A stretch of 64,000 nt of DNA. Origin: Azolla caroliniana. Taxonomy: Eukaryota; Plantae; Polypodiophyta. Where the stretch lies: contig JBHGNT010000126.1 in NCBI GenBank assembly GCA_043228905.1, forward strand, positions 1 to 64,000, in the 5' to 3' direction. Each line of letters starts with the position of its first letter. Within the stretch, counting starts at the first letter, position 1. Made by a program: the position numbers and the translations under genes. This document shows, in pieces, positions 1,182-43,793 of this stretch. The notes beneath the pieces were generated by a model that did no database searches, was not told the origin of the DNA, and was given only the letters and a program-made list of their open reading frames with translations.

Positions 1182-4100
1182 TCAGAAGTTGGCACTCTTT
1201 TTAGACATCAACTTCCTTGCACCTTGAAGGGTCTTGATTGTCATGACTAACTGCCCTCTTTCAGCTTCCACCTCCGCAAATTGGAGGCTCATGTTGAAGT
1301 ATCTATCCTTCATATCCTTGAGTTCATCATTGAGCATCAAATTTTTTCTCTTTAAATCTGCCAAATCATCAAGGATTTGCTCTGCACTACCAAGGTTCTG
1401 TAATGCAGCAGTATGAACATTCTGTTGCTGCGAAAAAGCACTAAAGATGAAACAAGCAACAAAGTTAGAAGCAAATCTTGAAGAGAGTGAGTCAGAAAGA
1501 CCATGATTGGAGCTAAAATGGAAAAATTAGTTCCCTACAGATTTTGGTTGATTATCTAATCTCAATCATTTTTCTAAGGTGGTTTTAATTGACTGCGACT
1601 CTGCGATAGCCAACTAATACTTAATTTATACACACAGGTGGTTTTAATTGACTGCAAGTCTGCGATAGCCAACTAATACTAATTTATACACACAAGTGAT
1701 AGCCTGGTATGTTCTTCCGTGGTCCACAAATTCAAACATTCTTTCGACATCCAACAATGTTTACCTTTGAAAAGTGATATTTGAACATTTAATATGCAAA
1801 AACGGAACTAAATTGACATTCATGAAAAATACAAAGATGGGGTAAAATATACTAGTAGGAGATCATTGCATTTATATGACACAACTGGAAGATATGTTTT
1901 TTGCTCCATCCCTACATAGACTTCATTGAATATATATACCTTTGAAGCTGTTTCTTGTACATGTTATTTGCCTCCAAAACTTCTGCAAGCTCAACCTCCA
2001 AGCTAGAAATTTTTTTCAGGATACTATCACTAGTTGCTGCAGCACTGAATTTAGAGAGTGCGTTGTCAAGTTCTTTTTTTTCCTGAATGTTAAATCAGTT
2101 GAATGTATAAGTTTTAGTTTAGACAATCAAGTAGCCAAAAGTAGAAAGCAAATCGTAGCAACATGAGATTACATACCTCTTTTACATTTTCCAGTTCACG
2201 TTGCAAAGATTCATGTAAACATAATTTTGCAAGAAGCTCAACCTGTCGCTCAGAAAGTACAGCATTTTGGTTCTGGAGACTGTCAAGCTGCAAAATTCAA
2301 ACGCAATCTAAGCTTTTTTGAAGACATAGATCCAATAAGAAAAATAATTACATAACCCAAAATACAAACGAGGATGGATGCATGGTATTACAAATATTAG
2401 AGTTTGGAGCACATTGAGAATCAATTTACTAATATACTGAATATTTCTCAAGAGGATTCATGATGTTATTGTTTTAACTTTCGAGCTATACATTTCAGTC
2501 TGACGCTTGAAAGTTCCACCGTGCATCAGTCAATATGTCTAGGAGCATTTCATTACAAAAACATTTCTTACTAATATCAGCATACAATGCAGATCATTAA
2601 CCACTTTACCTCTTGCAAGATTTTATCCAAATTCGAATTGGAACATTCTTTCATGAGCTGTTTGTTAGCAAGTTCAAGGTGTTCAATCCTCAAGGAAAGC
2701 TGAGAATATTGTTCCTTTAATCGTTGCTTTGATATCTCCAGTTCATCTGCTTTCTTCTTCACCTCGCCCTAACAAAAGTCCAAATATTTTGAATGGTTAG
2801 GTAAAAGCACGAGAACACCTCAAACTTTTGGATGTCTACCAGGATACCAAGGTTTCCAGAAATTAGAAGAACATCAATTTATAGTAGTAAATTTTGCATT
2901 GCATAGGGGGTACACTAATGTATTCTGGTAAACATCCAAATATCAGGGGTTTTTTATTGGTGTTCTCTTAGATAAAAGAGGATCATAGACTAAGACTATG
3001 CATATCCTGTTATAAAGTCACCTCTAAAAGCTTGACTTTCTCTCGCAAATCAGCTGCTTCTTTTGCTTCTCGAGTTGGAGGTAGATTAGATAATGGACCA
3101 ACCTTGTTGCTCTCCCTTGAAAGATACCTTGCAATGTGAGAAACAGGGCTTCCACCATTGATGGAAGATGCTTCCTTATCTCTCAGTTTCTTCTGTGATA
3201 AAACAAGTGCATTTGTCTGATGTGCTAGTTCCTCTTCCAAAGAGTAAATCCTCTTCTTAAGATCTTCCCTTTCAACGTCCTGTTCAGAGAGTTTGCGTTG
3301 ATTCTCAGCAATTTGTTTCTTCAGTTTACTTACTTCATTGTTTCTCTCTTTAAAGTTTGCGTCCTCTTGGGACTGCAACCTCTCTTTTAACGCTGTCAGC
3401 TCTTCTACAGTATTTTCTAAAGATACCTCTACTTTGTCTTTTTCTTTCTTCAAGGAGGCAAGAGACTTCTTTGTTGCTTCTTTCTCCTTTTTGTGAAATT
3501 CACATTCAGCACTTTTGTTTCTTACCTCAGATACCATCTTCGCATATGTCTTCTCTTTATCTAGCTCTGAAACTGTGCATTTTGCCTCCAATTCCATTAT
3601 TTTCTGTGAACAATCTAAGTTTTCATCTTTCAAAAGCTTGGATTCCTTCATGACCTCTTCCAAATGTTTCTTCATATTTAACTCAGTCAACATAGCTTCA
3701 TGCAGCTTCAGTTCCAACTCCTCTTTCATGGTTGAAGCTTCATTCTTGACCACATCCAAGATCTCTTGCGATTTTTGAAGAGCTTCCTCTAGCTCAACCT
3801 TTTGAGCTTTCAGGATTAATACATCTGAAAGGGTCTGCATTTGTTTGCTCTCACAATCAGAGACATCTCTCATCAACTGATTTAATCTCTCTTGTGATCT
3901 TGTCAGCTTTTCTTCCAGTTCAGCCTTTTCTTTGTTTGCATTATCAGAGGATAGATATTGGTCAATAATTTCTTGTTTCTGCTTGACTAACACTTGAAGA
4001 GAGGCAATCTCATTGGCAGCACCATTGTATTGCTCTTCATGATCCATAACTTCTTTCTCTAATTTCATAATGTTTTCCAAAAGCTTCGCCACTTGAGTTT

Positions 4101-7100
4101 GCAAATTTGCTTTCTGACCTTCAAGTTCTGATATTGTTTGTTCCAAATGGTTTCTAACCTCTGAATCAGATTCCAATTCACCTTCTAGTTCCCTTATTTC
4201 ATTCACCAATGTATTTGTGTTTTCCCGGGCCCACTCTATATCCTCTTGAGCATTCTTTAATTTCTCTGACAGCTCATCATTGAATATTTGCAAACCTTTC
4301 GAGATTGTTTCAAGTGCAGATTTGGAAGATTTAAGGGAAACTATGGTTTCTTCTAAAACAGACACATTCTCCTCTAACTCTCTGATTTGAGATTGGCAAG
4401 TTTTGTTCTCTTCTTGTAACTTGTGAATCTTGTTCTCCATTTCCTTCTCATGGTTTTTGAATTCCACTATTTCATCCTCCCGTGCTTTTAGTTGAGTTAG
4501 ATTCACGTTCATCTTTTCAATAAGCCCTGAGTATTTAGCTTCATCATCGCCACACCTTTGCAAAAGCTCCACACTCTTTAGCTCTTCCAGAGTTAGCTTC
4601 TCCTGTAAAATGCCATTAAAGCTCTTCACTTGAGCGATTATGGCTTCTGCTTCTTTTTTTGCTTCTAGCAAATTGGACATCTGTTCTTCTAGAACTATCT
4701 TTTCTGCCTTTGTACATGAGATTAGCTGTAGTGATTCCTTATATTTGCTATCTGTAGATGAAAGACGTTCCTGAGTATCTGCTAGTTGCTTCTTTAAGGT
4801 TGTGAAATCATGATCCTTCTCTCTCAAGCTTCTATTTGTCGTCTCTAGTTCTTCCACTTGCTGTAAGACATTCTTGCGGTCTTCCTCGGCTTTGGTTGCT
4901 TTCTCCTTGAGCAATCTGAGCTGCCCTTGTTGCGATGAAAGCAAAGATTTCTCTCTTTCATGACTCTCATTCTCCATTTTTAAGGATTCCACCTCATTCA
5001 ACAAATTCAAAGTCTGCTGTTGAAAGACCTGAATCTCTTCCTTTTGCCCATCGTTCTCCCTTTTCAGAGCCTGAACCTCCATCAACACCTCAGAAGTATG
5101 CTCATCTAGGCTTTGAATTTCGGTTTCCAAGCGTATGTTCTTGGAACGAAGCATCATAACCGAAGAGTTTAAATCATCAATAAATGTCCTGCTGCTGGCC
5201 AGCTTGATTTCATAAGATTCTTCACACTCTTTCAATTTTTCCCTCATTTCGCATACTGTTTCTCTAAGTTTTTCTACTTCAGCTTCATCGTTTTCATTGC
5301 TTTTGCTACCGATCTTCATCCTTAGCTCTGTAATTGCACTTTCTAGCTGAGAAATTGTGATGTCCCGTACTTTGGCTTTGTCATTCGACTGCTTCAACTG
5401 GGATATAAGATTCATATTTTCCTCTGTAAGTTCCTTTGAATCACATTCGAGCTCCTCTAATTCTTTCTTAAGGGCATCTACAGTATTTTTTAGGTTTTCA
5501 TTTGCAATTTCCAGACCTCTTAAATCTGAACTTTGAAGCTCTGCATCCTTCTTTTCCTGCAATGCCTTCTCAAGGTCCTGAATTTCTAATAGCAATTCTG
5601 AATTTGAATCCTGGGTCTTTCTTAGCTGAAGTGTCAAATTTGAGTTCACATTCTTCTCATACTCTAATTCTTCTTGTAATTCATCACAACTCCTGATTTG
5701 TTCAATACCCATCAGATTCAGTTTGCTTGCACACAATGACTTCTCCTTCTCCCATTTGAGACTCTCTTGTTCTTCGGATAATGTAGTAACCATCTTTTGC
5801 AATCCTTCATTCTTAGTTATTTCTTCTACAAGCTGCCTCTTTAGTGCACGAATCTCTATATCCATCTCCTTAGTTTCGTCATCCCTCAAAACAGCTTTTG
5901 ATTTTATAGTTCTCATTATTGCTGAATCAGCAGCCTCTATATCTTTGCTTTTGTAATCACTCCATTCAGTTAAAGCTAACATCTCATCGCAACTGGAATC
6001 ACTTGACAGTGGTGATTGGATTTTTGAATCTATGCCAGTCATCCCAGGGTAGTATTGAAAACCATTCGGCTCCTGATAGCTACTTATAGAGCTCGAAGGT
6101 GACATGAATACCTCATCCCCCTCTCTCGCAATGTGAAACCGAGATTCACTACGGTCTGGGGTTAGAGGAACCTCAATTGAATCTATACTGTAGCGAGGAG
6201 GAAAACAATCATCCTACAAGAAGCAGAAAAACATTCTGACTGTTTTTAGTAGGAATCATCATTAGTGCAATGCAATTAATAATGCCAATTATTTGTAGAA
6301 GCCCTCTGTTTTTCATTCAAGTGGGATCATATCACCTCAACTGCCCGTACATTACAAGGACAGATGTTACAACTCACTCATGCAATAATGGAGACAATCA
6401 GGCCAGAGGGCCATTTGCTCATGGAAGACCATTTGATTGGCCATAATATAGATAGTTATGGTCTTGACGTAAGCCTAAGCTAAATGGTAAAAATAGGATT
6501 CAGGTGGCCTGAAATTAAGGTTAACTTGTATACCTAATTGTGTAACCCTTAAAGTTAAGTCTAGATCGTGGTTATTAGCTAACCAGATTTTGGCAAAACT
6601 AATCACCATCAGCGAGCCTCTGGGTTAATTAATGTCATTAATGGATGACTGTGTGTATGCTCATATCCTCTTCTCAGAGATTAAAAGTATAATACTAACC
6701 TTATCTTCCATTGCATTACTTTCAAACCCATCATGCAGAGGAACTTCATTAGATGAATTCTCCCCCTCATCTTCAAGCTCCCTGAGAGATATTATGAATG
6801 TGATTACATATACATTATTTGCTTGCATCAAAAGCATAAACATAATAGAGTAACAAGATTAGATTTCATACCTATTAACGTCCTTCTGCATGTCACGTTT
6901 TATCTTAACCTATCCAGAAAAATCCATATAAAGATCCATTAAGATTCACATTGTGTAACCGTATCATCATCATATCATGTACGCTTCATGAACTATGACT
7001 CACATGTAAAAGGCTGCCAAAATTACAATTTTGCAACGGTAAGGACAAGGAAACTGGTACATGGGCCAGAGTATATTCTGTCATATCAATGGTGGCCTCT

Positions 7101-26225: not shown

Positions 26226-27288
26226 AGTTTGCTTTGGAAAAATGTTCGTGTTTCGAAGACGGGCGAGATGAGAGGTGCATTGAAAATATTTTTGAATGCT
26301 AGGATCTCATGCCCAATGTAATTTGTAACAATCCGTGGATGTTTACTTGTCCTCTACCAACTTTAGGTATTTTGGGCTTCCAAATTGAGGAAAAATGTCG
26401 TGGGACATAAGGAAAGGCATGACAATTGGATTTAACATTCTCAATCCGTATCACCCCTGACACAATGTTATTCTTCAAGTGAGATATTGCAAGTTCCATT
26501 ATGATCAAGAGGCTTGGGCAGTTTGAGAGTGTCATCCTCTCTAGCTTGAAGAATTTGTTCGTCCCAACAACACTTCCTCTTGTTCGAAGTCCGTATTTAC
26601 ACAAGTATTGTTTGTGCAAATGACCTATGGACCTCTAATCCATTTGTTTATGACACAATTCAGTGAATAAAACCTAATCCCACAGTGTGGAATGATCTCA
26701 CACTTACTTTAGTGAATGATAAGGATTTGGTTGGATGTAGCAAAGAAGTAATATGTAAGGTTAGGATTAGGTGCAAAGAGCAACAAGAGAGACAACAAAA
26801 AAGGAAAACAGAGAAATCCTTCCGTCGAGAAAACATATACACACATAGAAGAGTTTAGATTACTGGGTTTGCATGGATTTTCCTGAAACTTCAAAGTACT
26901 CTACAAGATCCTTACTTTGTACTAGACAAGATGTAAAAATGTGTCCTCGAGCTTCAACATAAATACCAGTGATTTTGAGTGGCCATTTTCTTTGTGTACA
27001 TAAGCTAGAAAACTAAATGTGGAGGTTGAAGATTAGGTTGAGAGAATATTTAAATGTTTGTATACACAAGATGGACTGGTTTATACCTGTTAAAGCTTTT
27101 AAGATCTGCATGAAATGCACAGTGTTTTTTTTTTGTGTGTCTAAAAATGCATCCAAATATGATGTGAAAACTTTCCCATAATCACATAGTCCTCATAGCT
27201 TTCTTGCTGTTGGAGATTTTGTGAATTGAGAGAGAGAGAGAGAGGGAGGGAGGGAGGGAGGGAGAGATTATTTGCCAGAAAAAATACA

Positions 27289-27528
27289 ATGTGCAGGCTT
27301 TGCTTTGCCTTGTTCACCACTTTTATCATCTTCCTTGTTTCTCTGCATTTTGTACAGCGTTCTAACAGCCTAAGTATCGGTTATAATGTCATCAATGCTG
27401 ACTATGTTCCTTGTTCTTCAGCCGGAATCTCCTACTACAATTGCCATCTTTCTGGCATCGCGAATCCGTACACTCGTGGATGCATCAAGATCACTGGATG
27501 TGCCCGAGACACCGCAATGCAAGGTTAG
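27289..27528 (+). CDS. RALF: Rapid alkalinization factor (RALF)-like secreted peptide precursor, 79 aa
   Basis: Hydrophobic signal peptide (MCRLCFALFTTFIIFLVSLHF), then 'SIGYNVINADYVPCSSAGISYYNC...ANPYTRGCIKITGCARD', which carries the four RALF cysteines and the GxSYYNC and ANPYxRGC motifs. Intronless, with a GA-rich 5'UTR. Confidence 0.93.
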   Translation: MCRLCFALFTTFIIFLVSLHFVQRSNSLSIGYNVINADYVPCSSAGISYYNCHLSGIANPYTRGCIKITGCARDTAMQG

Positions 27529-29200: not shown

Positions 29201-30169
29201 TATGATAGATATATTCATACACGTACTTTTATTATAGCAAAGTATACATACATACCAACTTTCAAGTTCGAAAACTCATCTACACTTTAAAGGATGAAAA
29301 TGCCTTTTATCAACACATCAAACACATGTATTTGTGGACAAGTGTTTGCAACAACCAAATGCTTGTGCACACAAATATTCACATTTTCATATGTAAATAC
29401 ACATAGTATGTATATTCATATGTATAGCATATCTATTTGAATGTGAATGAATTTACATTGTATGCATGCACACATGCAAATAAGTAAACTTCCTTTCAAA
29501 CTATTCATTGCTTTTATGTGTATGTCCATATGTGAGAATGCATCAATACATGGGCTTACAAAGATTTGTTCCACCACATCCATGGATAGAATATGAATTC
29601 CACTATTTGACACTATTGGTGTTGTCTACATCTCATATATGGACGTGTTTTACAACTTGAAAGTGAAATTTGATTTTGAAGACATACTTCAAACATGTTA
29701 GATTAGATGATTGTTTGGTCTCATATTTTCAAGAATCCAATTAACTAGTCTTGCCCAAAATGTAGTTTTCTTTTAATGCACGAGGATTCAAGTTGGTTGA
29801 ACACTCGCAATAATAGATGAACCAATTGACATAGTGGAATACACATGATTGCAGACGTCAATATACAAAATGCAATTAGAAAATATATGAGACAATTTAA
29901 CAATAAGAGCGAAGCAGATATAGAGTTCCATAAAAGGCCACTGTTAAGAAGAAGATGAAACTCAATTATGAAAATATTCTACCAAGGGTAATGAAGCTTG
30001 ATAGGCCGGTTGAGGGAGTAAAGTTATGATGGAAGATCGAGAATTTTCATAGTGACTAGTGTGTGTGTGTGTGCATAGACTTAGGCACAAATACAAAGTT
30101 AATGGTGACTAGTGTGTAATATGTATAGTTCACTCACTACATGAGAAATAAGAAGTAAGAAGTAAGAAA

Positions 30170-30280
30170 TTCGCAGGCCCTTCGTCAATTTCCTGGAAAC
30201 CCTAACCTTGACATCTTTTTCCTGACGATATGATGCAGCCGAACTATGACGATGTTCCTAAGGAATAGCTGATCCAACAG
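30170..30280 (+). promoter_or_regulatory. Probable non-coding first exon of the 32836-34122 gene, with a telo-box and a short uORF
   Basis: AAACCCTAA telo-box at 30197-30205, uORF MMQPNYDDVPKE* at 30230-30268 and a CAG|GTGCCC donor at 30280/30281. An acceptor CAG at 32832-32834 lies one base before the main ATG. The link between them is inferred. Confidence 0.5.
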
Positions 30281-31884
30281 GTGCCCGCTGTTAATCCTTG
30301 CATCCTTTGTTATGAATGCATTCTGTACAATAAATCAATCTATGTATTACTCGCTTAGAGGATTGTTCATGATCTCCCAATTGTAGATATGAAGCAGATT
30401 AGAGGTCCCTGAACCTAAGATATAGGTAGTGTATTGTTTTCACTGGCTCAAAGTACAGAAAGGATGGGAAATAGCAGAATCGTATTATTATGTATTTTCA
30501 CGGAAGTTGCAATTTATTAAAACTACGAATTGCGAATTTGTATAATGTATATTTACTGACAAAAAACGAAAAACTTGGTATTTTTACTTGGTAAAACTAT
30601 GAGAACCTTGACATTTTGAAATCAAATTGTTTTTTAGATTCTTACTTAAAGTTGGTAAAAACTCATATGTCTTTTGCAACATAAACATAGATTTTGGGGA
30701 AACTTGTATATATTGAAACTGAGAGTTTGTCAATATTAAAACATTCCAGTGAAGATCCGGACTATCATGAGCCGTGAAAGTCATTAAGTCCATTCAATCA
30801 TCAGTTTGACAGTAATGATCAATATATAGACTGTCTTAACTGTAGACCTTATGGAATCGTTATATTTTATAAGTTACATTCAATTTCAAAGTTCAAAGGT
30901 ATTTTAAAAATTTGCAATCATAAAAACTCATTTTCCCTCCAAGAACATTAACATGGATTGTGGAACCATTTTATGTTTCAAGATTCTGAACATTGACACA
31001 AGATCATCTTATACTATATGCTGTGGTGGTGGATAAAGTAGATGACGTGTTAGTGTGCCCACAAAGTTAAACTATGGTAATGTTTTGGAACCAGATTTCG
31101 GTGAAATCCTCTTTCCTTGTTTTTCTCCGGAGAGAAATGCATTACCAAACTCCTCTTTGTCTTTGTAACTACATATATAGTCACACCTTGCAGTAAATTT
31201 CTTATGTTGGTACATTCTGTCGTCATGGGGTGTTGCCTTTTGTTATTTTATAGAAAACATTTTAGCTGTTTTATTTTAGTTTTAATATTTTACTTGCTCC
31301 GCGGGAACTCTTGACATCTGGCAAGATTCATTTCATGACAGTGAATCGATGGGATGTCAATGGTCCCTAGACCAGAGGAGGCAAGGCCAACATACCCTGG
31401 TATTGTCACTTGGTTTATCCAGTTGGTAGTGTGTTCTGATGCCTGGTGATGTTTCTGTGTCCAATTGTGGAGTTGCAGGCTAAGATTTGTTTTTGATGAA
31501 GTGCCATTTGAGGAAGCATGAGCAAGACTCAGCCCACCTTATTCAATCACATATGTTCTTGATGTGAATCCCAAAATTGATCTGTAGAGCTAATGGGAAA
31601 TCATTTTAGAATGCTGAAATTGGCTGTTCCCATAGCTGATTTACTGTATTTTCTACAATGCTGAGTGGAGAGTACGCTACAAGCACACATGCAAGGTTTA
31701 TTTGCTGGCATAGGCTTATACTGCTAGTTATGTTTTCTAGAGCTTTGGGCTCTATTGTATTTCATGATCTTCTATTAATTATCAATAAAGAAATACGAGA
31801 AGGGGCACCAGTCTTTGAGGTCAACATTGTGTCAATTTCCTTGTTCAGGAACTGTCTAACTTTGTGGACGTGAATAGCTATGGT

Positions 31885-32278
31885 TGAAACCAAACCGCAC
31901 CATTTAATCACAATTTTGAACCTAACCATTTAAGTCAAATCAATTAAAAAATTAAATAAATAAAAATATAATAAACTAAAAAACCATTAAGTTAAATTAA
32001 TTAAATCAATAAGAAAACATTAGCTAAACCTTTAAATCAATACACTATTAAAGAAATAAAAAACGTTAACCAAAATCCAATAAATCATTAAACTGAACCA
32101 CTTAAACCTATAAACCGATAAATCCGAGTTTTAGAACCAACCGAACTAAAACCAAACTGTTTAATATTATTTGAACCAAATCAAACCATTTAATTATATT
32201 GCAACCAATAAACCATAAACCATGGCTTAACGGTTCGGTTCAGTTTGAGCCGAAACCGGGCCCGTTGCTAGATGTCAA
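31885..32278. mobile_element. hAT-like non-autonomous element end (AACC/AACCG-rich subterminal repeats)
   Basis: Dense AAACC/AACCG/CGGTT motifs end in CCCGTTGCTAGATGTCAA. A 13/14 inverted partner, TTGACATCTGGCAA, lies at 31311. No matching 8-bp TSD was found. Confidence 0.5.
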
Positions 32279-32835
32279 ATCAAGCCTTAATGAATTTGCA
32301 AGGTTTTAGCTAAATTGGTGGTTGGTCTTTTATGGCTTGTGGAACTTCTACAGGCTGGTTTCACGTTTACCTTGTCATGGTACTTTATTACTTGGATAAC
32401 CATAAAATCCTTGAGGTAATACGTCTGGACCTCTGTAAGGGATGCATTTATAGAATAAAAAGCTGATGCAGGTTTCCCTTGTTTTGTAGTGAATCGTGAA
32501 TCGCATGGCCTTTGTGCCTGCAATGCATAATCAAATTTCTGTAATTTAAACTTTCAATGATAGGATAGAAGCCTACAACAGTGGTGATTTGATGAAAAAT
32601 TAGGATTCAGCTTTATGAGGAGAAACTCATTTTACCAGATTTGGAATGCTTTTTTTCCATGTTTTAGACAGTAAAAATACTCCTTGATTGGCAAAGTTTA
32701 CAATCTAAGAATGCAATCTGGGGATGATCCTCTTGTAAAGAAGGGGTAGATGTGTACTTTAAAAAAATCAAGAGGCTATTTCCTGGAATATAATAACCTG
32801 AACACTTGCTTAATCACGTTTGAGACTTGGTCAGG

Positions 32836-34122
32836 ATGGAGAGAGGAGAAGGGAGTCAGTCACAGGAAGATGATGCAATCACAGACAACATATCGCTTCC
32901 CAATATGCTCAGGTCTAGTTCCTGTATTTAATTGTTTTGGCTAATTATTCTTCTTTGATCAAAACTTAAACCTTGTTTTCCAGGCTGCTTGAACAAGAGG
33001 AAGCTGTCCTCATCCAGATGCAGAGCAAGCTCTCGGATGAGCTTCATCGTATTCAAGTGAAAACCATCATCTTCTTGCAGTTTTCTACTATTTCTCATGT
33101 GGTCAGTTTAAAAGGATTTTTCTCATCGTATCCTTTGTTTCTCCACAGGTTGAAGAGCATGTCTTTCTGCATGCCCTCAAAATTCTAGGTGAGAAGCATA
33201 GTAACAAGGTGTGTGTCCCCTCTATATCCTTATTGAAAGTTTACATTCTTCTTTGATAGATGGCTTTATACATGGATTTCATAGAGGTAGGGCAAAATGG
33301 TTTCCTTTTTCAATATATGTTTTATTTGAATTTAAAATATCTTGGAATTTATTCTTGGCCTTCTTCTTTGCCAAAATTTATACAGATCGATTATGTGCTT
33401 TGGATTAAGACAACCACTGTTTGATAGATGATAAGAGACATCCCTATCATCCTTTAATCATACACCAATTATCGCTGAATACATTGTTAATGAGTATCAC
33501 TATTATGTGCACCTATCTCAACATGATTCTAGTCAATTACAACGATAGCACGTGGATTTAGGTTATTGTACGTTTAAGTATGATTCTGTGGTGAAACTTG
33601 GTTCCACTATCACAGAGTCGCCGGAATGTTTGAATGTTGAATCAATATCAAACTGGGTTTGGGATCTCTAGCACAGTTGAAATATCACCCAAGGGCTTGA
33701 GGCTGGTCTAATTCATGACTGTTTTACCTAGGGGAATTGCTTGTTAGTCTTCCTGTACTGTGCTACAGATTTAGCCTTTAAGAAACTATTTGGTGCCAAC
33801 TATATTCAATTTCCCATGCAATATATTGTGTACCTTTGTGCCACCTTTTTAGCAAGCAAAAAGGTACAGGACAATATCCATTTATATTATTAAATATTTT
33901 CTGGTTAACTAAATAATAGCAACTGGTAAATTTAGGCCTATATTAACAATGCAAAGCATTTTTCTCAGTCTATAGAAGTGAGGTTTCAAAACTGTTTTGC
34001 AGGAAAGTGATAAGAATGGGGATGAAGATGATGAGTTGATTGAAGCCATTGAGGAAGCATTGCTTGAAGAGGGAGATGTCATGCATGATGTGATTATAGA
34101 AAATGATGAAAAGTCTTTTTAA
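32836..34122 (+). CDS. Small coiled-coil/acidic protein, 109 aa, SNAPC5 (SNAP19)-like
   Basis: Four exons with GT-AG junctions and matching phases: 32836-32912, 32984-33056, 33149-33208, 34003-34122. Translation: MERGEGSQSQEDDAITDNISLPNMLRLLEQEEAVLIQMQSKLSDELHRIQVEEHVFLHALKILGEKHSNKESDKNGDEDDELIEAIEEALLEEGDVMHDVIIENDEKSF*. The gene model is well supported. The SNAPC5 identity rests on the motif L..L..EE..L......L.D.L.R..VEE plus the acidic tail, compared with the human protein from memory. Confidence 0.75.
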
Positions 34123-35592
34123 GAGGTGGGATGAAGCTACAGGTGTACAGTACCAGGTCTTAATTTGTGGATGATATGAATTATAATTATTCTTTCGTGT
34201 GGAATTCTCTCTCTTGTTAACACTGTCAAGGACCCTCAATTTGATAGAATTTTAGTCTTCATTAGAGTAAGTGGATTCACACACCTCATAATGGTATTTT
34301 CGTTGTTGTTCAATCCCACAATTGCACCTTGTCTTTGTATGGACTAGCTTGTAACTACGTGTATAGCACTCATGTTGAATCCTTTAAAGTTGTGTGTTGC
34401 CAGGAATCCATACTTCACGGGACCTTTGCAACCCATAATAGAATGATCATTTTTCTTAGTTTCTTATCCTGAAGGTTGATTTTTAAACTTGGTTGTATCT
34501 TACTTTTTAATCACTACATCTTCTTGAGTGATTGACAATATGAAATATTAACAATCGCAATGCCACAATAGAAGTGTGGTGGAGTCTTAACATAGAGGTA
34601 TTACGATTGGAATATTTGTTTCGTATGTGTATATGGTTGCACAAATCCTAACATGTATGATATTTTAGCATCACCAATTATTAGAATGGCACAATTAATC
34701 AATGTCAACATCATCGGTAAGCCATGGGAACTGAGACATACAACAAGTACTTAACAAAATGGTTGGATATATTTTCTCACATGTCCTTAACTTCTCAATA
34801 TGCCTTTGGTGGATAGAGTATCCAAGGGATAATCACACAATTAGGAGAGGAGCACATTGTTAAAGTTCATTTAATCTTCACCACTTTTCTTAGGGTGGGT
34901 TTAGGTGAGGTCTTTAGCTAATCATGATATTATGAGAGAAAAAAATCCATTTTAACACTTGTATATACAATGTTTTTAAGGATTCATTATCGCATATTTA
35001 CCCAATTGGCACTATTGTTAAATTCCCTCTAACTACAAGAAAGGTTAAGGTTGTTCAAACTAGACATGCCATTTACATGTGTTTGCCGAAATTTTAAATG
35101 TTTTTTGCTAAGCGTAGTATTCACAATTAGTTCATGATTTGGGAGTAGTTGTTGGTTATTTGTCTTGTTTGATGGGTGAGGTTATGGACAACATGGATAT
35201 AATGTAATCATTCGGTGGAGTGTTCAACCAATGTGCTTTAGAAATCACTCACACAACCTACATGATCCAAAAGTTAATATATGTCAATGTCTCGAGTTTG
35301 AGATCTACATATGGGGAACCTATTGAATATGTCCTAATACTTAAATGCATGTGTATATCTATGTTTGGTTATTTCATACTAATGTTAGGAATCGTAGAGA
35401 TCCATGGGATAGAAGGATGCTAGTGATGGATTGTAGGAAGACTAAACGTGGAGTAGACTCTATTGTGTCAGGTTCTTTGGGTTATCAACTCACCAACCAA
35501 CGAAATAGCTTGCAAGTGTGCATGATGAGCTAAAAGAGTCTCTAGTCAATTTGGTTCTATTTTCATGAGATTTCATACTTGATGTATGCATG

Positions 35593-38080: not shown

Positions 38081-40437
38081 TGTAAAGAATCAAGAGATGG
38101 ATTTTGTGCAGCGGAATAGATATGAACTGTGTGTGAGAGAGAGAGAGTGTGTGTGTGTGTGTGTGAGAGAGACAAGGAGTAAGACACAGAGAATACGCAA
38201 GATAAAGTATATTAACAAAGGAGAAAGACTCAACATTATACAAGGTGGGAGGAGGGTGCTTTATATAGTCACCCTCTCTCTTCATTAACTACAAGACTCA
38301 TGGAGCATGGGGAATGTGAAAGCTCATAAGTTATGTGTTATAGAATATAATTCTATGACTTATACTAAATGCTAGAATACAAAGTGGTGACATAATGGTG
38401 ACTCTTGACCGTTGGAGTGTCTATTCACTCTCAAGGTGAGTTCACACACTAGACCAAGTTGAGCTTGATTCTCAACATGCCCCCTCAAGCTCAAGTCGGG
38501 TCGGTTTCAGACGGTATCCGAAATCCACTTCGACTCGCGTTCCGGAGTCCGCGTCGACTTGTATTTATGCGGAGTTGCGGAATCCGTGCTCCAACTTGTG
38601 TTGTGCGTACTTGCGAAGTCTGTGCTTCGGCTTTGCGTCTTCCTTCGCGACTTTGCGCGGTAGATCGGCTCTTCGCGGATTCGTTGCGCGGTTGCGGAAT
38701 CCACGTGTTATTGCGTAGTGTCTTCAGTACTCCCCCTCAAGCTTGCCAGGTCAGGGGTCGTCAATTTGAGATCGGTCATGAATTGACATAGCTTGTCGGC
38801 GGCTCCTAAGGCTTTAGTGAAGATGTCGGTTGTTTGAAGATTGATGCTAATGTGTTGTTGGTCGACATCGCCAGCTAGAACGCGCTCTCGGATGAAGTGA
38901 TAGTGCACTTCGATGTGCTTTGTCAACGTGTGGAACACCGGGTTCCGAGCCAGATAGATACTGCTCATGTTGTCGCAGTAAAGGGAAGTCAGATCCTTGA
39001 TGGGTACACCCAGATCCTTGAGTATCCTTTTGAGCCATGCGGCCACTGCCGCACCCCTGTATTCCGCCTCTGTGCTCGAAAGAGCGACGGTTGGTTGTTT
39101 TTTGCTACTCCAGGATATTGCTCCGTTGCCGAGGGAAAAAATAAATCCGGAGGTTGATATATTCCTCGTTGGCTTCCGTTTTGCGGCCGAAATTGGGAGT
39201 TGTTATTGTAGGTCAGACCTCGTCTACCTTGTCCTTGGTCGAATCGGCCTCTCGCTCGTCCGCGTCCTCTTCCTCCGTTTGAGTGCGTGTAGAGCATGTG
39301 GCCTTCCGACTCATTGCTCCTTGTACGCACGTGGTTTTCTTCGACCAATAACATTGATTGGAGCTCGAAGAAGGAGGGAGATTTCTCCCTTGCTAGAACG
39401 ACGGTTCACATCGCGCCGAACCGTGGTGCGAGGCCGCTGAGGCATATTTGCACCATCTCATCATCATTGATATTTACGCTTATCGAGTCAAGCGAGTCAC
39501 AAAGCTCCTTGATCTTCAAGGTGTATGTCGTGATGGACATGTCCCTTTGTTGAATGTTGTTCAACTCTTGGCGGAGTTGAAGCCTTCTTGCAGTTGTGTT
39601 CGCCGCAAAAATCTTTCGTAGATTTTCCCATGCCTCCTTCGGCGTCTTGGCTTCGCGAATGTAGCCGAGCATGTGATCGTGAACACATGTCGCCAAGCAA
39701 TACATCACGCGGCTTGCGGCTTGCCCCCATGTCGCGTATCTGGGAGCCATTTCGACGGGTCGGTATTCGTGCACTCCTTTGATGTAGCTCCAATAGCCTT
39801 GTCCGACAAGGTATTGTATTGGTGCATCTTGTACTCCCAAGATGCGAAGTTGTTTCAATCCAACTTCTCGGTAGGGAGAACACTCCCCATTCGAGTATTC
39901 ATTATGTCGATTCTTCTTCTCTCTTCAAATGCGAGCTATGTAGCGATGCTACGATAGCGATGAGCCGGTTCTTGGTCGTCGGTGTAGGACACAACACACG
40001 CGGATGGGCTAGATTGAGCTACCAAGTCGCTTTGATACCATGTAAAGAATCAAGAGATGGATTTTGTGCAGCGGAATAGATATGAACTGTGTGTGTGAGA
40101 GAGAGAGAGAGTGTGTGTGTGTGTGTGAGAGACAAGGAGTAAGACACAGAGAATACGCAAGGTAAAGTATATTAACAAAGGAGAAAGACTCATTATTATA
40201 CAAGGTGGGAGGAGGGTGCTTTATATAGTCACCCTCTCTCTTCATTAACTACAAGACTCATGGAGCATGGGGAATGTGAAAGCTCATAAGTTATGTGTCA
40301 TAGAATATGATTCTATGACTTATACTAAATGCTAGAATACAAAGTGGTGACATAATGGTGACTCTTGACCGTTGGAGTGTCTATTCACTCTCAAGGTGAG
40401 TTCACACACTAGACCAAGTTGAGCTTGATTCTCAACA
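38081..40437 (-). mobile_element. Ty1/Copia LTR retrotransposon, internally deleted, 2357 bp
   Basis: 397-bp LTRs at 38081-38477 and 40041-40437 (TG...CA), 5-bp TSD ATTAC, tRNA-iMet PBS TGGTATCAAAGC (40040-40029) and PPT TTGAGGGGGCA next to the 3' LTR. A frameshifted gag ('EAKTPKEAWENLRKIFAANTTARRLQLRQELNNIQQ') runs directly into RNase H ('GAISWSSKKQPTVALSSTEAEY', 'LYCDNMSSIYLARNPVFHTLTKHIEVHYHFIRE', 'DIFTKAL'). Confidence 0.97.
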
Positions 40438-41207: not shown

Positions 41208-41572
41208 GAGATGCGATTTCCCGCCCAAACCATATGTGAAAAATAAAAAACAAAATTATATGTATATCATATATGTACTTAAATAAATACACATAATAAA
41301 ACTGTGTTATAAAAAAAGAGAAGATTTTACGCTGTAGGGTTTCGCCGCGAGAACAGAACGCACAGAAAGAGCGAGAAGATATAGACGGAAGGGCAGGAGA
41401 AGAGAAGAAGCTAGCTAGGGTTTCTTAGATAACTGGGTACTCAGAAAGAGCTACATAGACAAGAGACAGGTACAGAGAACAGAGCACAAGAGAAACACCT
41501 AGAGAGAAACAAGAGGAAAGAAAATTGCGCACGTTCTAGAGATAGGGAGAGAGAGAGAGAGAGAGAGAAGAT

Positions 41573-43793
41573 ATGGTGATGGATCCTTTAACCAGCCCGT
41601 TAGATACCAAGAAACGAAAGCTCGAAGAGAACAATAACAGCAATGGAGCGATGCCGACTATACTTCCTTGCGAACCTACCCTAACTACAGAGGAATCACC
41701 AACTTGTGCAGACAACCTGACCGACAATCATAACGTTGTTGATGCCAGGATCCCATCATACTTATCCCGCCCTGATGTCCGCCTTATGGTTGACCTTTTG
41801 TCCAAGGAAGACCTTGCCCATCTTCTTGTTGAAGCTTCCCTTCTACACCTCGATGTCCTTGATGGCGTTCGGGAGCTCGCTGACCGTGATCCTGCCCATC
41901 GTAAGATATTTGTCCGTGGCCTTGGGTGGGAAACCGACACTGTTAGCCTCCGAGACACATTCTCTGAGTTTGGTGAGCTTGAAGAAGCCATTGCCATCAT
42001 GGATCGCAACACGGGTACGTGTTATTTTATGAGCAAACTACCTTCTTTATTTATCATGCTTGGAAAATTAGAAATTGTTCAGGATGACCATGAGTTACAT
42101 GTTTTTCTTTAAGTTATTGTTCAATTAACATCAGGAAAATTTGAAATTTTTATAGGAATTTACTAGAAAACTGTATGTACTTTCTTGCACATTTCATGGG
42201 AATACCCAAAAAAATTGCATATTTCTAACAAAATTTGTTTCTTTCTGCATGAGATAATAGGAAATTATTTGCGTATATCTATTTAGGCATGCATACATCC
42301 ATCCTAACGTATACATACATACGTAAAGATATATGTTGGTGACTTATGCATTAAGCAATCACATGGTGGGGAAGAATATCACAATTTTCTGGGATTTTTA
42401 AATTTTTTTTTTATAAATTCTTATGGCTTGTCTCTTTTATACATATAATAAAAGGAAATGGGAAATCATCACAATACATGTTTTAGAGTATTTGTGCATT
42501 CTGATCAGTTTTTTTATTATTTCTAAATGAAGAGATCTTAATTTTTCAGCCACTACCAAAGATTTAGCGGAACTTATCAGATGTATGACATAGACTTCCT
42601 TAATGCTGGAAATAGTTTGAAATTATGAAGAAATACCATATAGGCGTAGGCATTTATTAAAGTCATGAAATAACCAAAAAAATTTGAAAAAATACCCCAA
42701 ATTAGAGGAAATCGTAATGAGATTTTTGTATTTTTATTGAACACTTATTAGTGCCGAAGTGAATGAGACTGTCTTTTTGCCAGGTAAGAGTCGAGGATAT
42801 GGCTTTGTAACTTTTAAACACATTGATGGTGCAATTAATGCACTCAAAGAACCAAGCAAACGCATTGATGGGCGAATCAGTGTATGCCAACTTGCTACCC
42901 AAGGCTCCAGTGGGTCATCTCAGCCTCCACAAGACTTAGCAACAAGAAAAATCTATGTGGGTAATGTTCCTTTGGACTGGCCAGTGGATGAACTTTTGAG
43001 CATATTTGCCCAATATGGAGATATCGAGGAGGGCCCACTTGGTCTTGATAAGCAGGTGGGTAAAGTGAGAGGGTTTGCTCTCTTTATCTACAAATCATCT
43101 GAGTCGGCAAAAAGAGCTCTTGAGGAGCCTGTGAAGACTGTCAACGGGCATCAGCTTTTTTGCAAGCTTGCGATTGAAGGTGCAAAACAGAGGGCAGCCA
43201 TTCAGCATAGTGGTGGACAACCTGAGATGAGTGAGCTAGCCAATACAGGCGGCCACCCATATGGTCAATATGCTGCGGGTCCTTCTCAAAGCATGATGGC
43301 AGCACAAGGAATTCCATACAACCAAAATACTGATCCGGGAATGCATGCTGGATTGAGCCAGAGCCAGAGTGTGAACCCTAATGTGGTTATGCCAATGCAG
43401 TGCCGACCTATAGGGAGTAATTCATCCATGCCTTCAGCCATGAATAATGTTCCTCATCACTGGCAAGCCGGGGCTAATACTACTCTGCAAAAGGGAGCTC
43501 CTATAGGGATGACACCACATGATCCATATGGTCAGCAGCAAACGATGTCTTATCCAGGGATGTATGCGAGTGTAGGAACTCCATTATCATCATATAATCC
43601 AGGATCGGTTGTATCAATGGGTTCTCAGACTCCAGTTGTTCAAGGACAGTATGGCATGCCTTCTTATCAAAGCCAACATCTATCGGGGCCTTACCAGAAT
43701 ACACAAACTCAGCAGCAGGATGCAATAGCATCATCTGGGCCTCGAGTCCCACAGATAGGAGGAGTTCCGTCAATACCCTATTATGGAATGTAA
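41573..43793 (+). CDS. UBA2: UBP1-associated protein 2 (UBA2)-like hnRNP with two RRMs, ~483 aa
   Basis: Exons 41573-42014 and 42784-43793 (phase-1 GT-AG intron). 'KKRK' NLS, RRM1 'ADRDPAHRKIFVRGLGWET...GKSRGYGFVTFKH', RRM2 'RKIYVGNVP...GDIEEGPLGLDKQVGKVRGFALFIYKS', and a G/Q/P/Y-rich tail. These are the UBA2-family hallmarks. Confidence 0.93.

What the first reader, a model, noticed from the sequence alone, without database searches (positions are those of the whole stretch)
32836..34122. Hidden 4-exon gene encoding a SNAPC5/SNAP19-like protein in a plant genome
Seen in the sequence: four short exons with canonical, phase-compatible junctions give a 109-aa protein that the ORF track does not show as a unit. 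Its helix LPNMLRLLEQEEAVLIQMQSKLSDELHRIQVEE aligns without gaps to human SNAPC5 as I recall it (MLSRLQELRKEEETLLRLKAALHDQLNRLKVEE): 12/33 identities, conservative changes at most hydrophobic positions, similar size and the same acidic tail. Established knowledge: SNAPC5 is the small subunit bridging SNAPC1 and SNAPC4 in the snRNA-promoter complex, and plant SNAPc is usually described with only the SNAPC1, SNAPC3/SRD2 and SNAPC4 core. Inference: this plant lineage may retain an overlooked extra SNAPc subunit, which would make the subunit older than usually assumed. A phase-0 intron falls right before 'VEE'; I recall the human gene having a boundary at the same place but cannot verify it. A telo-box upstream fits a housekeeping RNA-metabolism gene.
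Basis: partly seen in the sequence, partly recalled or inferred. Interest (0 to 1): 0.8.

Follow-up and report, generated by a model that had tools for sequence, protein, structure and literature searches.

The report
Overlooked fern snRNA transcription factor subunit
A fern has a small spliced gene whose leucine-zipper product likely corresponds to human SNAPC5, a part of the machine that switches on snRNA genes and that reviews say plants lack.

Summary
The gene is real. All three coding introns are spliced at the stated positions in contigs of 2 of 4 public runs, which also reveal a fifth, non-coding leader exon 2.55 kb upstream that holds the telo-box. Exons 1-3 are conserved in close relatives. 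The host is a fern. Exon 2 alone hits only Pfam SNAPC5 (E 0.005-0.013, below the curated cut-off). One of three exon-2 queries retrieved human SNAPC5 from the PDB (E 2.3). Two features left out of those queries also fit: exon 3 supplies the two glutamates that complete human V31-E32-E33, and a seven-position leucine zipper crosses both splice junctions in the human register. No plant homologue was retrieved. The spliced protein could not be run against Pfam or folded with SNAPC1/SNAPC4, so orthology (about 0.8) and the role (about 0.7) are inferred. Papers read say plant SNAPc has three subunits; whether databases already label plant members is untested. The scan's earlier notes held no SNAPC5 finding.

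The parts
30147..30280 (+).
   Evidence: Loose 5' ends of 131/124 nt in X1 and X3 match here; donor CAG|GTGCCC; also present in L002, 15 of 133 letters differ
30197..30204 (+). Telo-box inside the leader exon
   Evidence: 4 in the window, 2.6 expected, 0.005 expected in this exon; one letter changed in L002
30230..30272 (+). Two overlapping upstream ORFs (12 and 8 codons); the 8-codon one is in frame with the main ORF and stops 9 nt before its ATG in the spliced leader
   Evidence: short ORFs with changed peptides are visible in the L002 leader printed
30281..32834 (+). Leader intron, 2,554 nt, GT..AG
32835..32912 (+). Coding exon 1 (ATG at 32836): acidic N-terminal 20 residues, then the start of the zipper (L21)
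   Evidence: 1 of 77 letters differs in L002, synonymous
32913..32983 (+). Intron 1, 71 nt, phase 2
   Evidence: Joint in X1 and X3
32984..33056 (+). Coding exon 2: core of the SNAPC5-like helix (residues 26-50, human 6-30)
   Evidence: Pfam PF15497 sole hit; PDB 7zwc_d; predicted helix; 0 changes in L001 (63 nt), L002 (51 nt) and X3
33057..33148 (+). Intron 2, 92 nt, phase 0, directly before V51
   Evidence: Joint in X1 and X3
33149..33208 (+). Coding exon 3: V-E-E and the end of the zipper (F56, L63); ends at residue 70, equal to human position 50
   Evidence: 1 of 60 letters differs in L001, synonymous
33209..34002 (+). Intron 3, 794 nt, phase 0; also seen unspliced in X3
   Evidence: Joint in X1 and X3; one X3 contig spans 33180-34030 unspliced
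34003..34391 (+). Last exon: acidic tail (CDS to 34122) and 3' UTR to at least 34391
   Evidence: 17 D/E in 39 residues; not covered by L001 or L002

Best explanation
This spliced, conserved fern gene encodes a 109-residue leucine-zipper protein that is likely the orthologue of SNAPC5 (SNAP19) and would work as the small helical subunit of SNAPc. Shown: five-exon gene, spliced contigs, conserved exons 1-3, a seven-position heptad (L21, L28, L35, L42, I49, F56, L63), a gap-free match of residues 28-54 to human SNAPC5 8-34. Inferred from the human structure: residues about 21-70 (human 1-50) form one long helix that packs with two SNAPC1 helices and one SNAPC4 helix into the four-helix 'wing-2' or rod module, which stabilises SNAPc on snRNA promoters and contacts TFIIB in the Pol II initiation complex. 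The acidic N-terminal extension and tail are likely flexible. The short, fast-evolving helix is split over three small exons, which would explain why it escapes gene callers and BLAST-type surveys.
For: Splicing: 3 of 3 joints in 2 of 4 runs. Selection: coding against intron differences 1/123 vs 60/681 (L001, P 6e-4), 1/128 vs 49/588 (L002, P 8e-4), 2/212 vs 48/847 (X3, P 0.002); both L001/L002 coding changes are synonymous. Family: 3 of 3 distinct exon-2 queries gave PF15497 as the only family of 24,736 (E 0.0049, 0.0065, 0.013; profile positions 6-31). 0 of 32 control 29-mers from a coiled-coil gene of this window hit it. PDB: human SNAPC5 was the only match of 177,635 sequences for the 33-residue query (E 2.3). 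Held-out match: that query read V-K-T into the intron where the human chain has V-E-E, and exon 3 supplies V-E-E; E-E makes up about 2% of dipeptides in the control coiled coil. The heptad run of 7 was reached by 168 of 20,000 shuffles and shares its register with human L8, L15, L22, L29. Seven of the 11 identities are off the heptad position and mostly polar (E31, E32, D44, R48, E52, E53). Exon 3 ends at human position 50; the wing-2 helix is SNAPC5 1-51 (PMC9758055, passages). Ferns have SNAPC1: one SNAP43 gene each in two fern genomes (PMC6786969 supplement 3, row 3884).
Against: All Pfam scores are below the 23.6-bit cut-off. 1 of 32 control tiles reached a similar E-value (0.0059) with another family, 2 of 32 reached E 0.01 or better, so the exon-2 score alone is near coiled-coil noise. 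The PDB hit depends on the query: none with 29 residues, and a two-row profile gave 4 calcitonin hits and no SNAPC5. Pfam and PDB hits are not independent of each other. Exons 1, 3 and 4 alone hit nothing. No plant, algal or animal homologue came from two word-based searches or from phmmer on 1.84 billion representatives (3 repeat artefacts), although that collection holds Ceratopteris and Adiantum proteins. A hydrophobic-moment test of residues 24-64 was not significant (359 of 2,000 shuffles). The telo-box is changed in L002.
Confidence: 0.7

Rival explanations
1. A fern-restricted small leucine-zipper protein unrelated to SNAPC5, which would act as a dimerising adaptor or a competitive microProtein for another zipper factor; the likeness to SNAPC5 is coiled-coil convergence.
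For: Sub-threshold scores; 7 of 32 control coiled-coil tiles hit some Pfam family at E up to 10, and 1 of 32 at a similar E-value; no homologues retrieved; query-dependent PDB hit.
Against: The control tiles that scored best hit several generic coiled-coil families, whereas exon 2 hit one family in 3 of 3 queries. The held-out E-E match, the off-heptad polar identities, the shared register, the similar size (109 vs 98) and the helix ending at the same position are not expected from convergence.
Confidence: 0.18
2. A true SNAPC5 descendant that has left SNAPc or is only loosely tied to it in plants and is used with another partner; the working plant complex remains three-subunit.
For: SNAPC5 is dispensable for transcription in vitro and called non-conserved (PMC9652321, passages); plant SNAPc is described with three subunits; 16 of 27 aligned positions differ from human.
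Against: The whole wing-2 helix length and its heptad are kept under purifying selection, and the partner SNAPC1 is present in ferns. No other role of SNAPC5 appeared in the passages read.
Confidence: 0.1
3. Not a protein-coding gene: a spliced non-coding transcript or a pseudogene with a chance ORF.
For: Upstream ORFs precede the ATG; no protein record found; the runs are only guessed to be RNA.
Against: Phase-compatible splicing in two organisms, exons 1-3 six- to twelve-fold less diverged than introns, only synonymous changes in L001 and L002, while the leader exon diverges like an intron (15/133).
Confidence: 0.02

Closest known systems
Human SNAPC5 / SNAP19 (Pfam PF15497; PDB 7zwc_d, 98 aa)
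   Same: Gap-free match of residues 28-54 to human 8-34 (11/27 identical), same heptad register, D-x-L-x-R-x-x-V-E-E end, helix region of about 50 residues, similar total size.
   Different: 20 extra acidic residues before the helix; found in a fern, where SNAPc is described as three-subunit; score of the single exon below the Pfam cut-off; binding untested; tail similarity untested.
Plant SNAPc core (SNAPC1/SNAP43, SNAPC3/SNAP50, SNAPC4/SNAP190)
   Same: The complex this protein would join; SNAP43 is present in all 23 green-plant genomes of one orthogroup table, including two ferns.
   Different: Described with three subunits only (PMC10533338 and PMC9652321, passages). No SNAP19/PF15497 label in the 5,243 orthogroup rows held; the file was cut.
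Honey bee SNAPC5 (GB15864)
   Same: A precedent for patchy retention and weak detectability: BLAST E 2e-5 to mouse Snapc5, listed among genes shared by bee and vertebrates but not found in other sequenced insects (PMC2656531, passages).
   Different: Within animals; the fern gene would move the origin to before the plant-animal split.
LITTLE ZIPPER (ZPR) microProteins and other small plant zippers (recalled, no call)
   Same: Small size, one leucine zipper, present in ferns (recalled).
   Different: No Pfam hit to any other zipper family with exon 2; the ZPR signature as I recall it is absent; no direct comparison was run.

Membership tests
SNAPC5 (PF15497) | Whole-protein score at or above the Pfam gathering cut-off (23.6 bits) | tested here: inconclusive
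   Exon 2 alone gives 16.4-17.7 bits as sole hit. The spliced protein was not scanned; exons 1 and 3 add the zipper start and V-E-E.
SNAPC5 (PF15497) | Gap-free similarity to the N-terminal helix of human SNAPC5 | tested here: inconclusive
   E 2.3, only hit, in 1 of 3 queries; 11/27 identical once exon 3 is read, counted by hand.
SNAPC5 (PF15497) | N-terminal leucine heptad in the human register over about 50 residues | tested here: met
   L21, L28, L35, L42, I49, F56, L63; 168 of 20,000 shuffles; human L8, L15, L22, L29; exon-2 part predicted helical.
SNAPC5 (PF15497) | V-E-E motif closing the conserved block | tested here: met
   Formed by the spliced exon 2-3 joint; human V31-E32-E33; the two glutamates were not in the query.
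SNAPC5 (PF15497) | Small protein of about 100 residues | tested here: met
   109 aa; human chain 98 aa; profile 101 positions.
SNAPC5 (PF15497) | Acidic C-terminal tail as in human | tested here: inconclusive
   Fern tail is acidic; exon 4 hit nothing in Pfam or the PDB; the human tail is recalled only.
SNAPC5 (PF15497) | Forms the four-helix bundle with SNAPC1 and SNAPC4 | not testable with these tools
SNAPC5 (PF15497) | Orthology by tree, reciprocal search or shared intron position | not testable with these tools
   No homologue retrieved; no eukaryote genomes searchable. I recall a shorter human isoform lacking residues 31-60, which would put a phase-0 boundary before V31; no call checked it.
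LITTLE ZIPPER (ZPR) | ZPR-type zipper signature that binds HD-ZIP III | not tested
   Considered from recall only; no ZPR sequence was fetched.

The most novel reading that the evidence does not exclude
SNAPC5 predates the plant-animal split and was kept in ferns, so the 'three-subunit plant SNAPc' is a detection failure or a loss limited to some lineages. The wing-2 four-helix bundle that links SNAPc to TFIIB would then be an ancient part of eukaryotic snRNA transcription, not an animal add-on.
Probability: 0.6. Interest if true: 0.75.

Novelty: new member of a known kind. Interest (0 to 1): 0.62.

Why it matters
Reviews and structure papers treat SNAPC5 as a non-conserved extra of animal SNAPc and state that plants have only three subunits. 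A fern orthologue would change that picture of how snRNA transcription evolved, give a seed sequence to look for hidden SNAPC5 genes in mosses, algae and seed plants, and make it testable whether wing-2 and its TFIIB contact exist in plants. It is a new member of a known family, not a new mechanism, and the novelty drops to a literature correction if InterPro already labels plant members.

Tried and rejected
No genome held for the window; PF15497 could not be run on L001/L002 as genomes. Word-based homologue searches with exon 2 (39-126 aa and 127-2000 aa) found nothing. phmmer on 1.84 billion representatives gave 3 repeat-rich artefacts. These blanks are weak because the query held only 25 true coding residues. 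ESM Atlas gave no answer. PDB searches with exon 2 (29 aa), exon 3 and exon 4 found nothing; the two-row profile gave calcitonin, a 10-residue chance match. No RNA holder was listed on record; X4 had nothing laid. The single-helix model was not sent to a fold search because a lone helix is uninformative. No complex was predicted for lack of partner sequences. The hydrophobic-moment test was not significant. Papers not held: Thiedig 2021, Henry 1998, Ohtani 2017, one further id. Supplements of PMC9477723 (9 files searched, file 3 not readable) had no SNAPc term; the one supplement of PMC9652321 had none of three terms. Earlier scan notes: one unrelated SNAPC4 note by words, none by place or sequence.

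Full report
Observation. Four public runs were laid on 32700-34400. X1 (99+% alike) and X3 (a relative, 90-99% alike) each show all three joints at the predicted places. X2, probably DNA, is unspliced. X4 had nothing laid. The runs are only guessed to be RNA, but intron-free contigs in two organisms are what spliced transcripts give. Both X1 and X3 carry a loose 5' end at 32832 (131 and 124 nt) whose shown letters match the window just before 30278. The telo-box at 30197 lies in this exon. Two short upstream ORFs precede the ATG, and an in-frame stop 9 nt upstream makes 32836 the first usable start.

Is it a coding gene? Coding positions differ far less than intron positions: 1/123 vs 60/681 (P 6e-4) and 1/128 vs 49/588 (P 8e-4), both coding changes synonymous; X3 gives 2/212 vs 48/847 (P 0.002, counts taken). 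The leader exon diverges like an intron (15/133). Exon 4 is not covered by L001 or L002; in X3 exon 4 plus UTR has 14 differences in 263 letters.

Host. A neighbouring UBA2C-like RRM gene has its best named matches in Adiantum and Ceratopteris (77-79%), ahead of gymnosperms, liverworts and angiosperms (58-68%). In a tree of 20 named proteins that I picked from the 120 listed, it groups with the four fern rows at 100/99 support. The window is from a fern (one gene, one tree).

What the protein is. Exon 2 alone hits one Pfam family of 24,736, PF15497 SNAPC5, in 3 of 3 distinct queries (16.4-17.7 bits, E 0.0049-0.013, profile positions 6-31), below the cut-off of 23.6. As a control, 32 tiles of 29 residues from a coiled-coil gene in the window were scanned: 7 of 32 hit some family at E up to 10, 2 of 32 at E 0.01 or better, 1 of 32 at 0.0059, and 0 of 32 hit SNAPC5. 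So the score alone is near coiled-coil noise, but its target is specific. In the PDB, a 33-residue exon-2 query returned human SNAPC5 as the only match of 177,635 sequences (E 2.3). A 29-residue query returned nothing and a two-row profile returned four calcitonin chains instead, so this hit is fragile, and it is not independent of Pfam. Two features that were not in the queries add weight. First, the query ran into intron 2 as V-K-T where the human chain reads V-E-E; the spliced exon 3 supplies V-E-E. E-E is about 2% of dipeptides in the control coiled coil. Second, hydrophobic residues recur every seven positions across both junctions (L21, L28, L35, L42, I49, F56, L63; 168 of 20,000 shuffles) in the register of human L8, L15, L22, L29. 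The spliced residues 28-54 match human 8-34 at 11 of 27 positions without gaps (hand count), seven of them off the heptad position. Exon 3 ends at residue 70, equal to human 50; the SNAPC5 helix of wing-2 is residues 1-51. A model of the exon-2 frame is one helix (pLDDT 97.8), which says little. A hydrophobic-moment test was not significant (359 of 2,000). Exons 1, 3 and 4 alone hit nothing. The spliced protein was not scanned against any remote library, so the formal family test stays open.

Homologues. None was retrieved, although the collection holds fern proteomes. With 25 coding residues and a need for three exact 5-mers or E 0.001 in 1.84 billion, this is weak evidence. Honey bee and mouse SNAPC5 match at only E 2e-5 (PMC2656531, passages), so the family is hard to detect even within animals.

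Mechanism. In human SNAPc, wing-2 is a four-helix bundle of two SNAPC1 helices (162-234), one SNAPC4 helix (81-125) and one SNAPC5 helix (1-51); the SNAPC1 and SNAPC5 helices contact TFIIB (PMC9758055, passages). The same rod module stabilises mini-SNAPc and does not bind DNA (PMC9652321, passages), and it stays formed but mobile in the Pol III complex (PMC11696126, passages). The fern protein keeps exactly that helix length, with acidic ends. I infer that it fills the same place. SNAPC1 is present in ferns (one gene each in two genomes; PMC6786969 supplement 3, row 3884). Binding is untested. Odds: orthologue about 0.8; orthologue working in wing-2 about 0.7; unrelated zipper 0.18; orthologue with another role 0.1; non-coding 0.02.

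What is in print. [quoted passage not shown] PMC9652321 lists Arabidopsis among three-subunit organisms and calls SNAP19 non-conserved. Ten library searches listed no paper whose title or abstract start reports a plant SNAPC5; most were seen as listings only. Passages were read in PMC9652321, PMC10533338, PMC10887745, PMC11696126, PMC9758055, PMC2656531, PMC1761439 and 10.64898/2026.08.31.747621. An orthogroup table of 23 green-plant genomes had no PF15497 or SNAP19 label in the 5,243 rows held, but the file was cut and small orthogroups may lie beyond it. The two primary plant papers (Thiedig 2021, Ohtani 2017) were not held, and their text or supplements may bear on this. Whether Pfam/InterPro label plant or other non-animal members could not be checked; I have an unverified recollection that some non-animal proteins carry this label.

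Verdict. A real, spliced, conserved fern gene, likely the SNAPC5 orthologue: a new member of a known family in a lineage where reviews say it is absent. Interest 0.62; 0.75 if the ancient wing-2 reading holds.

Noticed in passing
window 33180-34030 (run X3): Intron 3 is also seen unspliced in X3 (contig depth 30.7 against 59 for the joint), while introns 1 and 2 are not. Read through, it gives an 85-residue form without the acidic tail; the read-on frame has the same length in L001. It may be a retained-intron isoform or pre-mRNA.
   Followed up: partly
window 41335 and 41416 (- strand motif), before the RRM gene at about 41546-43793: Two of the other three telo-boxes of the window lie just upstream of the UBA2C-like RRM gene, another RNA-metabolism gene.
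   Followed up: partly
window leader intron; L002 1674-1676: About 1,240 nt of the leader intron are absent from relative L002: an insertion or deletion of unknown origin.
   Followed up: partly
L001 from position 810; window 33798 onward: L001 leaves the window's sequence inside intron 3 and shows no exon 4 in the next 2.4 kb; X2 has many loose ends at 33822-33859, which suggests a repeat or insertion site in this intron.
   Followed up: no
window 27199-27528 +: RALF peptide gene (PF05498, E 8e-15), the nearest recognised gene upstream.
   Followed up: no
window 38708-39924 -: Copia-type retrotransposon remains (gag PF14223, E 1e-17).
   Followed up: no
window 3010-6213 -: Exon of over 1,000 codons encoding a long coiled coil with only sub-threshold Pfam hits; used here as the control.
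   Followed up: partly
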